This document shows positions 62,400 through 64,000 of a DNA stretch of 64,000 nt, piece by piece (the first letter of the stretch is position 1; the number at the start of each line of letters is the position of its first letter). Both the position numbers and the translations under genes were made by a program. Source of the DNA: Adineta ricciae (lineage: Eukaryota); contig CAJNOJ010000203.1 in NCBI GenBank assembly GCA_905250025.1, positions 64,001 to 128,000 on the forward strand, read 5' to 3'. The notes below the pieces were generated by a model. That model was not told where the DNA came from. It worked only from the letters and a program-made list of their open reading frames with translations, and ran no database searches.

Positions 62400-64000
62400 A
62401 AAGAAAAAATTGCATGTCTTTACCGTATTTTGCTGCAGTGTATCGATCAGTTCCTGAGCACCATGGTCACCAATTTGATTGTAGGCAAGGTAGAGCGTAC
62501 TCAATGTCTATTTGAAAATAGAATATATCTAGCAGACTTTGGACAAGAGAAGTTGCTGGTTACTCTGTTATGCACGAGAGCATTTGCGAAGCTTTGAGCG
62601 CCCTGATCACCGAGCTTGTTCGAATAGAGATTTAGTATGGTCAACGTCTATGAAGATACAATATCGCCTAAAACATGCGTACAAGATTAGGGAGAGTACC
62701 GTATTATGAACAAGCGCATTAGCCAGATGTTGAGCTCCTTGAGCCCCGATGTCGGCTTCAGACAGATGGATGATTGATAATTTCTACAGAAGTAAAGTGG
62801 AGAAAAGACAGGATTAGACATACTATGATGATAACCTTATTTTGCGCGAGAGCATCAGCAAGATATTGTGCACCTTGATCACCGACTTGATTTCCCGAAA
62901 GATGAAGGATTTCCAGTGTCTGTACAATAGTATAAATGGATAATGATGATGGAATCAATCGATTGTATTTAATACCTGATTTTTAGTAAGCACATCAGCA
63001 AGTTGTCGAATACCTTGAGCAGTAATTCGGTTATAACTTAGATCGAGTGTTCTTAAAGTCTACACACACAAGAAGTATTTTTGAATGTTGTTACTTCCAT
63101 TTTATGTACTTTATTTTGATTGAGAGCGTCTATCAGATGTTGTAATCCATCGTCGCTGATTCGATTTTTGTGTAAGGAAAGTTCTACTATTGTCTGCAAA
63201 TTAGACGAAGAGAAAATGAATAAGGATATAGTAGAAAAACACCTTGGATTGTTACCGAATTTTGTGCAAGGATAATGGAAAGACTTTCTGCTCCTTGATC
63301 GTCGATTCGATTCTCGGTCAGACGAAGTTCCGTCAATTTCTATATACATATCAACAGAACGATTTACGAAGAACAAAACATCATTATATTCACATTATTG
63401 TTTTGCAATGCTTCATTTATGAGTTGTACATCTCGATCTGCCAACAGTCCCATACTGATTGTCCATTGTTGCGCATCCTGGTGATCAGCAATGAAATTTT
63501 CCAATTCAGGATGATGATAAACGATCTCGTCTTTTGCGTGATGTCGAGTTACAGTCACTTGTGCATGATGTCGAATTAATTCTCTTATCTGTGCGATATT
63601 TTCAAGACTTATTCCTTCAGTGTTATATTGGTACATGATCGGCTTTCTTAACCTTCCTAAGATTTCACTGACTCGTTTAATATGAATAAGAAAACATTGT
63701 TTTGCCCGTGACAAGTTCATCTGATTATCACATGACCGACGAATATGGAACAGTTGCTTTTGAGTGTGTAAAACTTCGGCTTGATTTTGTATTCGAGTAC
63801 GATATTTATCCACGTCTTTCGTTTCAATTATTTCAGTCTTTTCAATTTTCTCCATGATCTCCCGTTCATATTCTTCAATAATGTTTTTTAAATTGTTCAT
63901 TGCTCCACTGACTTCTTCCTTTATCGTTTTATGACGAGTATCACTATTTTTTGACAATTCATCACTTTCACTGATTTTTATATTCAAGGATGCTTCAGCA
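62400..64000 (-). CDS. RBCC-LRR gene B (tandem paralog of gene A): coiled-coil exon plus at least 7 single-LRR exons; 5' part (RING/B-box) lies beyond the window end
   Basis: The coiled-coil exon at 63364-63987 ends …DRDVQLINEALQNNNV, like the CC-LRR junction of gene A. Seven 84-nt LRR exons lie at about 63240, 63100, 62970, 62825, 62690, 62550 and 62437 (…LHKNRISDDGLQHLIDALNQNK…), separated by introns of only about 45-60 nt. The last exon ends in a donor, so the gene continues below 62437. Confidence 0.6.

What the first reader, a model, noticed from the sequence alone, without database searches (positions are those of the whole stretch)
62400..64000. Second RBCC-LRR paralog with very short introns, in contrast to the long introns of gene A
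Gene B has the same CC-to-LRR junction and LRR consensus as gene A. Its seven LRR exons are separated by introns of only about 45-60 nt, the genome-typical size seen in every other gene here. The LRR exons of gene A are separated by AT-rich introns of 215-800 nt. Unusually long introns confined to one paralog suggest insertions, decayed intronic elements or regulatory content specific to gene A. The pair is tandemly arranged in the same orientation about 10 kb apart.
Basis: seen in the sequence. Interest (0 to 1): 0.55.

Follow-up and report, generated by a model that had tools for sequence, protein, structure and literature searches.

The report
Rotifer TRIM-LRR genes: short versus long introns
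Two related rotifer genes build a leucine-rich-repeat sensor domain from one 84-base exon per repeat; one keeps tiny introns, while the other has a repeat array with long introns, a pattern also seen in other rotifers and at least partly caused by repeat exons dying and becoming intron.

Summary
The window comes from a bdelloid rotifer closest to Adineta ricciae. Gene B (minus strand, cut at 64000) has seven 84-nt phase-0 LRR exons plus a C-terminal cap exon, with introns of 49-62 nt. Gene A (51739-41886, minus strand, 22 exons, 954 aa) is RING + B-box + coiled coil + 3 LRR exons (introns 79 and 59 nt), then a 174-nt exon that duplicates the coiled-coil-to-LRR junction, then 14 LRR exons with introns of 220-799 nt. 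So the long introns are confined to the second LRR array, not the whole gene.

This two-part layout recurs in orthologous loci from A. steineri, Rotaria magnacalcarata and environmental bdelloid contigs. The Rotaria ortholog of gene B keeps 7 LRR exons and 52-75 nt introns. The long introns contain no repeats, transposon domains, known RNA families or missed working exons.

One decayed LRR pseudo-exon lies at 42118-42035. Orthologs carry more dead LRR exons, and exon number varies between near-identical contigs. Long introns have strong GTRAG donor sites (65/74), short ones mostly do not (6/20).

The two genes are old paralogs with at least five unrelated genes between them. This is an ordinary but instructive case of exon birth and death. 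Regulated skipping of LRR exons remains an untested possibility.

The parts
63394..64000 (-). Gene B: coiled-coil exon, 5'-truncated by the window end. It ends with an irregular first LRR, the CC-to-LRR junction.
   Evidence: Open frame 63999-63394 followed by a GTGAAT donor. Best hit is A. ricciae B-box protein P0036, 87% identity. The junction is homologous to gene A's junction.
62424..63339 (-). Gene B: seven 84-nt phase-0 LRR exons at 63339-63256, 63193-63110, 63059-62976, 62919-62836, 62783-62700, 62647-62564 and 62507-62424. Introns are 62, 50, 56, 52, 52 and 56 nt.
   Evidence: Profile hits E=1e-12 to 1e-15, AG/GT at every boundary. Pfam LRR_6 E=2.6e-41.
62270..62374 (-). Gene B: C-terminal cap exon (half LRR plus tail, TLMRLSLHHNPIGD...IIISS*), preceded by a 49-nt intron.
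   Evidence: The Rotaria ortholog P0038/L010 has the same kind of terminal exon.
50465..51739 (-). Gene A: RING exon (51739-51496), B-box exon (51437-51115) and coiled-coil plus junction-1 exon (51061-50465). Introns are 58 and 53 nt.
   Evidence: Splice sites read and assembled in frame. Pfam: RING at residues 15-53, B-box at 140-175.
50017..50406 (-). Gene A LRR array 1: three 84-nt exons (50406-50323, 50243-50160, 50100-50017). Introns are 58 nt (before the first exon), 79 and 59 nt.
   Evidence: Three exons with 51-56-nt introns in L002, L005, L006 and L009.
49685..49858 (-). Gene A junction-2 exon (174 nt, phase 0). It is an internal duplicate of the end of the coiled coil plus the junction. 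It marks the switch from short to long introns, and a 158-nt intron precedes it.
   Evidence: 46% identity over 85 aa to junction 1 plus LRR1, E=6e-26. Present in all orthologs. Spliced into the cDNA-like contig L001.
42704..49409 (-). Gene A LRR array 2: 14 exons of 84 nt, phase 0, starting at 49409, 49004, 48661, 48357, 48019, 47666, 47226, 46401, 45977, 45466, 44592, 43709, 43156 and 42787. A 275-nt intron separates the junction-2 exon from the first exon. The 13 introns between exons are 321, 259, 220, 254, 269, 356, 741, 340, 427, 790, 799, 469 and 285 nt.
   Evidence: Profile hits E=1e-13 to 1e-17, all open, all AG/GT, 11 of 14 donors GTRAG. 86-91% aa identity to A. ricciae P0001.
42035..42118 (-). 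Decayed LRR pseudo-exon inside gene A's last long intron (ILTTLNL*NN*IIDNGTRSLVDSIRNHI). It has two in-frame stops and its acceptor has mutated to CG. An intact-looking 50-nt GT...AG intron follows (42034-41985).
   Evidence: nhmmer E=0.0056 on the whole window and 5.8e-4 on the introns alone. Stop-masked (X) protein-profile scan E=0.0058. Sequence read.
41886..41984 (-). Gene A C-terminal cap exon (TIQAIYLVGNNGISNATRTNIQRQQPRIKFSY*). It lies 719 nt downstream of the last intact LRR exon.
   Evidence: Conserved in A. ricciae P0001 and R. socialis P0003.

Best explanation
Genes A and B are two old paralogs of a bdelloid-rotifer family of TRIM-like proteins. Each has a RING, B-box and coiled coil, and presumably acts as an E3 ubiquitin ligase. 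Its C-terminal recognition domain is a ribonuclease-inhibitor/NLR-type LRR solenoid, encoded one 28-aa repeat per symmetric 84-nt phase-0 exon.

Gene B is a stable version: 7 LRR exons plus a cap, with roughly 50-nt introns.

Gene A carries an ancient internal duplication, giving junction + 3 LRRs followed by junction + a long LRR array. Its second array evolves by birth and death of exon-plus-intron units.
- Units are duplicated together with their flanking intron.
- Exons are lost through nonsense or splice-site mutations. Because every exon is symmetric, skipping a dead exon costs only one repeat, and the dead exon is absorbed into the intron.
- This process, plus inheritance of already long intron units, makes the array-2 introns long and uneven in length. 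They are not transposon insertions.
- These long introns are genuine and spliced in a different regime from the short ones: they have consensus GTRAG donors, where the short introns have weak donors.

Shown directly: the gene structures, conservation of the layout, the relic exons, the exon-number variation and the donor difference.

Inferred: E3 ligase and immune-sensor function; that most of the extra intron length (beyond the one relic) comes from older decayed exons or inherited long units; and the two splicing regimes (exon definition versus intron definition).
For: Gene models.
- All 22 gene-A exons join in frame into a 954-aa protein.
- Pfam finds RING, B-box and LRR_6. The LRR is closest to ribonuclease inhibitor, NOD2 and NLRP chains.
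- The AlphaFold model of ortholog P0003 has a 105-residue helix, then two LRR blocks separated by a low-confidence linker.

One gene, not two.
- The same architecture appears in proteins from A. ricciae, A. vaga, A. steineri, R. socialis and R. magnacalcarata.
- The intronless cDNA-like contig L001 runs from the RING through junction 2.
- The internal duplication scores E=6e-26.

Conserved intron layout.
- L002, L005, L006 and L009: array-1 introns 51-56 nt. Array-2 introns (L002, L005, L009; L006 ends before array 2) are about 125-550 nt.
- R. magnacalcarata L012: 94 and 105 nt against 195-901 nt. A. steineri L011: 230-674 nt against 275-1708 nt.
- Shared neighbours support orthology: a ubiquitin-NHL gene next to gene A and a carbonic anhydrase next to gene B.
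- Gene B's ortholog in Rotaria sp. Silwood1 (L010) has 7 LRR exons plus a cap, with introns of 52-75 nt.

Exon death.
- Window relic at 42118-42035.
- L005 and L009 have three dead exons whose counterparts in L002 are still open (two full-length, one truncated). L002 has two further relics.
- L012 has two exons with a single stop each, and the RNA-seq-guided models P0011 and P0012 skip both.
- In L011 one exon has lost its acceptor.

Exon birth and copy-number variation.
- L009 has one more LRR exon than L005, although the two are 96.8% identical.
- L011 contains 340-495-nt duplicated blocks, each an exon plus about 350 nt of intron.

No transposon signal.

Donor sites: GTRAG in 65 of 74 long introns against 6 of 20 short ones, Fisher p=9e-7.
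Against: - Only one relic is detectable among the window's 15 long introns. Weak sense and antisense profile hits are balanced 4:4. Exon death therefore explains one intron directly and the rest only by extrapolation.
- The basic array-2 intron in several orthologs (125-180 nt) is shorter than one dead exon plus two short introns (about 194 nt). Something else must contribute, such as an ancestral longer unit, or decay followed by deletion.
- In A. steineri and L003 the array-1 introns are also long, so the boundary is not absolute.
- The donor-site counts include paralogous exons that may have inherited their donors by duplication, so the data points are not independent.
- There are no transcript data from the source organism.
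- No transposon library was available. Very old or non-coding elements such as MITEs or SINEs present once in the window would escape my tests.
Confidence: 0.65

Rival explanations
1. The long introns are functional. They put array 2 under exon-definition splicing, so that symmetric LRR exons can be skipped or swapped. One gene would then produce a repertoire of TRIM-LRR isoforms with different repeat number and identity. Gene B and array 1, with short introns, would be spliced constitutively.
For: - Every LRR exon is 84 nt and phase 0-0, so any subset stays in frame.
- All window array-2 introns are at least 220 nt and have strong donors.
- RNA-seq-guided BRAKER models of the Rotaria orthologs list isoforms that differ by whole 28-aa units, or by mutually exclusive units, almost only in array 2: P0002/4/5/6/7, P0009/10, P0011/12 and P0014/15. 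Annotation methods are in PMC7943196.
- Long-intron status is conserved although intron sequence is not.
- From my own knowledge, not checked here: exon skipping is favoured when flanking introns exceed about 200-250 nt, and NLRP3 uses skipping of a symmetric LRR exon.
Against: - The isoform models could be artefacts. Reads from haplotypes or paralogs with different exon numbers, or mis-mapped across near-identical exons, would mimic skipping. Such exon-number variation is demonstrated here.
- No transcript data exist for the source species.
- Many ortholog array-2 introns are only 125-180 nt.
- No conserved intronic motifs of the docking/selector type were found.
Confidence: 0.18
2. The long introns are old transposon or other mobile-element insertions that have decayed beyond recognition in this one gene.
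For: - Intron lengths are uneven (220-799 nt) and the sequences are unique and AT-rich.
- Bdelloid genomes contain diverse low-copy transposons, and Penelope elements have moved LRR genes (PMC3846280).
Against: - No similarity between introns or to anything else in the 64-kb window.
- No terminal inverted repeats or tandem repeats.
- No transposon protein domain in any frame of the largest introns.
- The pattern affects 15 consecutive introns of one array and recurs in orthologs of several genera. That would require many independent insertions targeted to the same array.
- Where the origin of extra intron sequence can be seen, it is dead LRR exons.
Confidence: 0.08
3. 'Gene A' is really two units: a short RBCC + 3-LRR gene ending near 49990, and a separate 5'-truncated LRR-only gene or pseudogene starting at the ATG at 49855. 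In that case the intron contrast is between different genes.
For: - Junction 2 is a duplicate of the start of an LRR domain and contains an in-frame ATG (EMETQ...).
- Reading through the donor at 50016 gives a stop after 8 codons.
- The intron-size switch falls exactly here.
Against: - The acceptor at 49859 is in phase with exon 50100-50017.
- The same in-frame arrangement is present in five named species and in the environmental loci.
- The intronless contig L001 joins array 1 to junction 2 and array 2 in one transcript-like molecule.
- All 14 array-2 exons are intact, whereas the genuine relic shows what decay looks like.
Confidence: 0.04

Closest known systems
Ribonuclease inhibitor (RNH1) and NLR (NOD2, NLRP3/5/14) LRR domains, with their modular exon structure
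   Same: - The repeat type is the same: Pfam LRR_6, and the best solved-structure matches are ribonuclease inhibitor, NOD2 and NLRP chains.
- As in RNH1 and the NLRPs (from my own knowledge), exons match whole repeat units and are phase-symmetric. Units can therefore be duplicated, lost or skipped without a frameshift.
   Different: - Here one exon encodes one 28-aa repeat (84 nt), not an A+B repeat pair of 57 aa (171 nt).
- There is no NACHT or other NLR nucleotide-binding domain.
- The LRR domain is split into two arrays by a duplicated junction.
TRIM / RBCC E3 ubiquitin ligases (for example TRIM5alpha and fish finTRIMs, which have a C-terminal B30.2/SPRY sensor domain)
   Same: - The N-terminal order is RING, then B-box(es), then a long coiled coil.
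- The variable C-terminal domain plausibly does the target recognition.
- The family is expanded lineage-specifically.
   Different: - The C-terminal domain is an RNI-type LRR solenoid rather than SPRY, NHL, filamin or the like.
- I found no paper describing this architecture in rotifers.
- E3 activity and targets are untested.
The long-intron class of the bimodal bdelloid intron-length distribution (Nowell et al. 2018, PMC5916493)
   Same: - A. ricciae introns have a median of 55 nt, with a minority class of much longer introns.
- Gene B and the 5' part of gene A belong to the first class. Array 2 belongs to the second.
   Different: - Here 15 consecutive long introns are confined to one repeat array.
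- The layout is conserved among orthologs, and the origin of part of the extra length (dead exons) can be seen.
- I did not find the donor-site difference between the two classes described in the passages I read.
Cassette or mutually exclusive exon arrays that diversify receptors (Dscam1; NLRP3 LRR-exon skipping)
   Same: It is an array of similar, frame-neutral exons. Annotated isoforms of the orthologs differ by whole units.
   Different: - There is no direct transcript evidence in this species.
- No conserved docking or selector sequences were found.
- The isoforms may be mapping artefacts or reflect exon-number differences between haplotypes.

Membership tests
TRIM / RBCC proteins | N-terminal RING finger | tested here: met
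   - Gene A residues 15-53: zf-RING_UBOX E=1.1e-10 and zf-C3HC4 above their cut-offs.
- Gene B's N-terminus lies outside the window. Its ortholog P0037 has a RING, and so does P0038/L010.
TRIM / RBCC proteins | One or two B-box zinc fingers after the RING | tested here: met
   - Gene A: zf-B_box at 140-175 (30.8 bits, cut-off 24.1), plus a B-box1/ZZ-like stretch at 90-131 that falls below cut-off.
- Gene B's closest relative P0036: B-box E=1.4e-9.
TRIM / RBCC proteins | Coiled coil following the B-box | tested here: inconclusive
   - The AlphaFold model of ortholog P0003 gives a continuous helix at 183-287, at pLDDT of only 41-69.
- Pfam TRIM_CC is below cut-off in P0037, at 21 bits against 30.
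- The spliced window protein could not be submitted for structure prediction.
TRIM / RBCC proteins | E3 ubiquitin-ligase activity | not testable with these tools
   Needs biochemistry.
RNI-like (ribonuclease-inhibitor/NLR-type) LRR domains | Repeats of 28-29 residues matching LRR_6, similar to ribonuclease inhibitor and NLR LRRs | tested here: met
   - LRR_6 E=2.6e-67 for gene A and 2.6e-41 for gene B.
- PDB matches: ribonuclease inhibitor 1.5e-44, NOD2 4.8e-34, NLRP14 3.4e-28.
- The model of P0003 shows regular strand-helix units at pLDDT above 90.
NLR (NACHT-LRR) receptors | Central NACHT / NB-ARC NTPase domain | tested here: not met
   No NACHT or NB-ARC hit in gene A or in the visible part of gene B. 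The N-terminus is RBCC instead.
Transposon-derived intron expansion | Repeated copies, terminal repeats or transposon-protein remnants in the introns | tested here: not met
   - Introns against the window by blastn: no hits.
- The repeat finder reports only the exons. Tandem Repeats Finder reports only six short, low-scoring (30-37) arrays of about two copies.
- Pfam on the 10 longest intronic ORFs and on all six frames of the three largest introns gives no significant match. The only hit, CTD8 at 14.7 bits, is below its cut-off.
- No transposon library was available.
Exon-to-intron conversion (pseudo-exons) in a repeat-exon array | Recognisable dead copies of the repeat exon inside the long introns, in the sense orientation | tested here: met
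   - Window 42118-42035.
- L005 and L009: three. L002: two. L012: two plus one truncated. L011: one with a lost acceptor.
- Only 1 of the window's 15 long introns shows a relic.
Regulated cassette or mutually exclusive exon arrays | Transcripts from one haplotype that include different subsets of array exons | not testable with these tools
   Only indirect evidence: RNA-seq-guided isoform models in Rotaria. No reads or long cDNAs were available.

The most novel reading that the evidence does not exclude
The long-intron array 2 of the gene-A orthogroup may be a built-in diversity generator. Exon-definition splicing of frame-neutral 84-nt LRR exons, through skipping and mutually exclusive choice, would act on top of rapid birth, death and copy-number variation of those exons. 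Asexual bdelloid rotifers would then get a variable repertoire of TRIM-like LRR sensors from a single locus. The short-intron array 1 and gene B would stay invariant.
Probability: 0.15. Interest if true: 0.7.

Novelty: new variant of a known kind. Interest (0 to 1): 0.4.

Why it matters
- It gives a concrete, checkable example of how introns can lengthen without transposons in a compact genome. In an array of frame-neutral repeat exons, a dead exon is simply skipped and becomes intron.
- It shows that the two intron length classes known in bdelloids carry different donor signals, at least in this gene family. That hints at two splicing regimes within a single gene.
- It documents an uncharacterised but conserved and expanded architecture (RING, B-box, coiled coil, then two RNI-type LRR arrays). 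This is a plausible innate-immune sensor ligase in animals that lack sex and are known for unusual defence gene content.
- If the annotated LRR-exon isoforms are real, the locus would be a new case of receptor diversification by splicing.

Tried and rejected
- **Missed working LRR exons.** I built a protein profile from the 24 LRR exons and scanned stop-free six-frame segments. I repeated the scan with stops masked as X and with a DNA profile. No intact exon was missed, and one dead exon was found.
- **Intron-to-intron or dispersed repeats.** The repeat finder and blastn of the introns against the window found nothing. Tandem Repeats Finder found only six short, low-scoring arrays.
- **RNA genes in the introns.** Rfam at E≤1 gave only a chance match to a bacterial sRNA, outside the introns. 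No tRNAs were found.
- **Transposon proteins.** Pfam on intronic ORFs and on X-masked six-frame translations gave no significant match.
- **Deep conservation of intron sequence.** Only a 25-nt marginal hit to the ortholog loci.
- **A second C-cap relic after exon 18.** The 11-nt match is not above shuffled controls, so I rejected it.
- **Window-wide intron-length survey.** My heuristic was too noisy to use.
- **First regex LRR scan.** It failed.
- **Ortholog loci.** The look-up of encoding contigs failed for P0001, P0008 and P0003. It worked for P0016, P0038, P0017 and P0011.
- **Two-gene or pseudogene reading of gene A.** Considered and rejected; see the rival explanations.
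Full report
**What the window is.** The sequence is eukaryotic, with GC of 0.31-0.42 and introns of about 50 nt. Proteins assembled from it match bdelloid rotifers best. Gene A is 78% identical to an Adineta ricciae protein and 54-64% identical to A. vaga, A. steineri and Rotaria proteins. Gene B is 87% identical to an A. ricciae B-box protein. No identical protein is in the database. The source is therefore an Adineta close to A. ricciae, or a divergent copy within that species.

**Gene B, the flagged interval.** On the minus strand, an open coiled-coil exon runs from the window edge to 63394. 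Seven LRR exons follow, each exactly 84 nt and phase 0, and then a cap exon that ends in a stop at 62270. Every boundary is AG...GT. The introns are 54, 62, 50, 56, 52, 52, 56 and 49 nt. The RING and B-box part lies outside the window. Three things support the RBCC label:
- P0036 carries a B-box.
- The full-length Rotaria orthologs P0037 and P0038 carry RING plus B-boxes plus LRR_6, at 41-43% identity over 98-99% of the query.
- The same downstream neighbour, a carbonic anhydrase, is present in the window and in Rotaria sp. Silwood1.

**Gene A.** I read the splice sites and joined 22 exons in frame into a 954-aa protein. In order, the exons are:
- a RING exon, a B-box exon and a coiled-coil exon, with introns of 58 and 53 nt;
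- three LRR exons, with introns of 58, 79 and 59 nt;
- a 174-nt exon at 49858-49685;
- 14 LRR exons;
- a cap exon at 41984-41886.

The 174-nt exon is an internal duplicate of the end of the coiled coil plus the junction (46% identity over 85 aa, E=6e-26). Intron size changes exactly there: 158 nt before it, then 275, 321, 259, 220, 254, 269, 356, 741, 340, 427, 790, 799, 469, 285 and 719 nt. So the long introns belong to the second LRR array, not to gene A's LRR exons in general. All introns, short or long, are AT-rich. The GC dip at 42-50 kb only reflects more intron sequence.

**Is gene A one gene?** Yes, very probably.
- The same RBCC + 3 LRR + 'EMExQIRN' junction + LRR array is found in predicted proteins of five bdelloid species.
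- An intronless, therefore cDNA-like, 1873-nt JGI contig (L001) runs from the 5' UTR through the RING, B-box, coiled coil, three LRRs, junction 2 and two more LRRs.
- All 14 array-2 exons are open, have canonical splice sites and are 86-91% identical in protein to A. ricciae.

**What the proteins are.** Pfam finds RING, B-box and LRR_6. The LRRs are closest to ribonuclease inhibitor, NOD2 and NLRP chains. There is no NACHT domain. An AlphaFold model of ortholog P0003 shows a helix of about 105 residues, then a four-strand LRR block, a low-confidence linker and a long LRR solenoid at pLDDT above 90. The function (a TRIM-like E3 ligase whose LRR arrays recognise a ligand, plausibly in defence) is inference from these families. 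I found no paper on this architecture in rotifers.

**What is in the long introns?**
- *Not other copies of anything.* repeat finder reports only the exons. blastn of each intron against the whole window finds nothing. Only six short, low-scoring tandem arrays turn up. There is no Rfam family or tRNA.
- *No transposon proteins.* No significant Pfam match appears in the ten longest intronic ORFs, or in any of the six frames of the three introns of 740-800 nt.
- *No missed working exon.* Protein-profile and DNA-profile scans recover every known exon and no new intact one.
- *One dead exon.* The scans do find a relic at 42118-42035, in the last intron: ILTTLNL*NN*IIDNGTRSLVDSIRNHI. It has two in-frame stops and an acceptor mutated to CG. 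A 50-nt GT...AG intron still follows it, directly before the cap exon. That 719-nt 'intron' is therefore 585 nt, plus a dead 84-nt exon, plus an old 50-nt intron.

**Comparison with orthologous loci.** A metagenome scan with an RBCC alignment, plus look-ups of annotated proteins, gave ten further loci (L003-L012).
- *Environmental bdelloid contigs L002, L005, L006, L009.* Array-1 introns are 51-56 nt, and a 56-57 nt intron precedes junction 2. Where array 2 is present (L002, L005, L009), its introns are about 125-550 nt.
- *R. magnacalcarata L012.* Array 1 has 94 and 105 nt. Array 2 has 195-901 nt.
- *A. steineri L011.* Array 1 has 674 and 230 nt. Array 2 has 275-1708 nt, over at least 15 exons.
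- *L003.* All LRR introns are long, at 403-1567 nt.
- *Orthology.* The ubiquitin-NHL neighbour is shared, which supports orthology.
- *Gene B.* Its Rotaria ortholog L010 has the same 7 LRR exons plus cap, with introns of 59, 56, 75, 52, 58, 56 and 57 nt.

So the contrast is a property of the two orthogroups. It predates the Adineta-Rotaria split and is not a local insertion event. Intron sequences are not conserved between these loci.

**How array 2 evolves.**
- L005, L009 and L002 are 96-97% identical contigs, yet L009 has one more LRR exon than L005.
- L005 and L009 carry three LRR exons killed by stops at the Q of NQIGD. Their counterparts in L002 are still open, two of them full-length and one truncated.
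- L002 has two further relics in its 832-nt intron.
- L012 has two exons with single stops and intact splice sites, and the RNA-seq-guided models skip both.
- L011 has an exon with a lost acceptor, and 340-495-nt duplicated blocks made of an exon plus about 350 nt of its intron.

This is birth and death of exon-plus-intron units. Because every exon is symmetric, losing one costs one repeat and the corpse lengthens the intron. Gene B and array 1 keep a fixed exon count across genera.

**Splice signals.** For the LRR-flanking introns of the window and six loci, 65 of 74 long introns (110 nt or more) have GTRAG donors, with G at +5 in 93%. Only 6 of 20 short introns do (Fisher p=9e-7). In the window alone the counts are 11 of 14 against 2 of 8 (p=0.026). 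Duplicated exons may share inherited donors, so the counts are not independent. Even so, the difference fits splicing that depends on short intron length for the short class and on strong splice sites for the long class. That interpretation is inference.

**An open lead.** RNA-seq-guided BRAKER annotations of the Rotaria orthologs (methods in PMC7943196) list isoforms that differ by whole 28-aa LRR units, or by mutually exclusive units, almost only in array 2. This could be regulated cassette splicing. It could equally be an artefact of reads from haplotypes with different exon numbers. I cannot tell which.

**Relationship of A and B.** They share the junction (33% identity over 69 aa) and the LRR type. 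Otherwise gene B is only about 28-34% identical to gene-A orthologs, and each has its own Rotaria ortholog. Between them lie a ubiquitin-NHL gene, an ADP-ribosyltransferase-TPR gene, an unidentified ORF, a DEAD-box helicase and a carbonic anhydrase. They are linked old paralogs, not a tandem duplicate.

**Verdict.** The most likely explanation is an orthogroup-specific birth-and-death LRR exon array, not transposon insertion. This is a new variant of known things: RNI/NLR-style modular LRR exons, TRIM-like ligases and the known long-intron class of bdelloids. It is of moderate interest, with a low-probability but attractive reading as a splicing-based diversity generator.

Noticed in passing
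window 42703-42686; L001 1808-1873; L003 13333 and 19217-19272; L002 8020: The intron after gene A's last intact LRR exon starts with GTAAGCTACTTT. Read-through would give '...QNRVSYFV*'. The same 12-mer follows LRR or junction exons in L001, L002 and L003. The cDNA-like contig L001 ends in this sequence (VSYFPD*), and its last 56 nt are about 80% identical to L003 downstream of the orthologous exon. Several annotated orthologs end in 'VS', 'VSCF' or 'VSVFL'. This may be a real alternative (or ancestral) 3' end that omits the cap exon.
   Followed up: partly
window 41886-51739 compared with protein P0001: Identity to the A. ricciae homolog is uneven: 71% in RING/B-box/coiled coil, 81% in array 1, 66% in junction 2, and 86-91% in array 2 and the cap. 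P0001 also lacks five of the window's array-2 exons and includes a piece of intron as coding sequence. This could reflect gene conversion, different constraint, or comparison with an ohnolog.
   Followed up: partly
window 52940-54165 (+); L011 2-782; L012 4569-5732: A ubiquitin-domain plus NHL-repeat gene lies next to gene A in the window and next to its orthologs in A. steineri and R. magnacalcarata. In the window it points away from gene A (head to head). In the other two it is upstream on the same strand. This suggests a local inversion.
   Followed up: partly
window 54384-56441 (+): A single uninterrupted 686-codon ORF combines an ADP-ribosyltransferase exoenzyme-like domain with many TPR repeats. 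In Rotaria, ART domains are fused to the same RNI-type LRRs as in genes A and B. This points to shuffling of effector and repeat-sensor modules.
   Followed up: no
window 7584-8375 and 19682-20464 (+): Two paralogous genes about 12 kb apart encode signal-peptide-like, Q/G/L-rich proteins (MKAALA...). They are 78% identical in DNA over 805 nt, including their short introns.
   Followed up: partly
window 10803-12941 (-): A 713-codon open frame is rich in Ser, Thr and Pro, with repeated 'xxEQS(I/V)T(N/K)K'-like units. The opposite strand is also open over long stretches, as expected for low-complexity sequence.
   Followed up: no
window 60313-60327: A short (GT)7 microsatellite lies in the spacer between the DEAD-box helicase and carbonic anhydrase genes.
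   Followed up: no
L010 4308-5373: In the Rotaria ortholog of gene B, the only long intron (1066 nt) is the one between the coiled-coil exon and the first LRR exon. The same intron is 54 nt in the window.
   Followed up: no
L005 7978-8391; L009 7980-8393; window 42118-42035: Dead LRR exons repeatedly carry their stop at the Q codon of the NQIGD motif (CAA/CAG to TAA/TAG). The same position is hit in the window relic and in the environmental loci.
   Followed up: no
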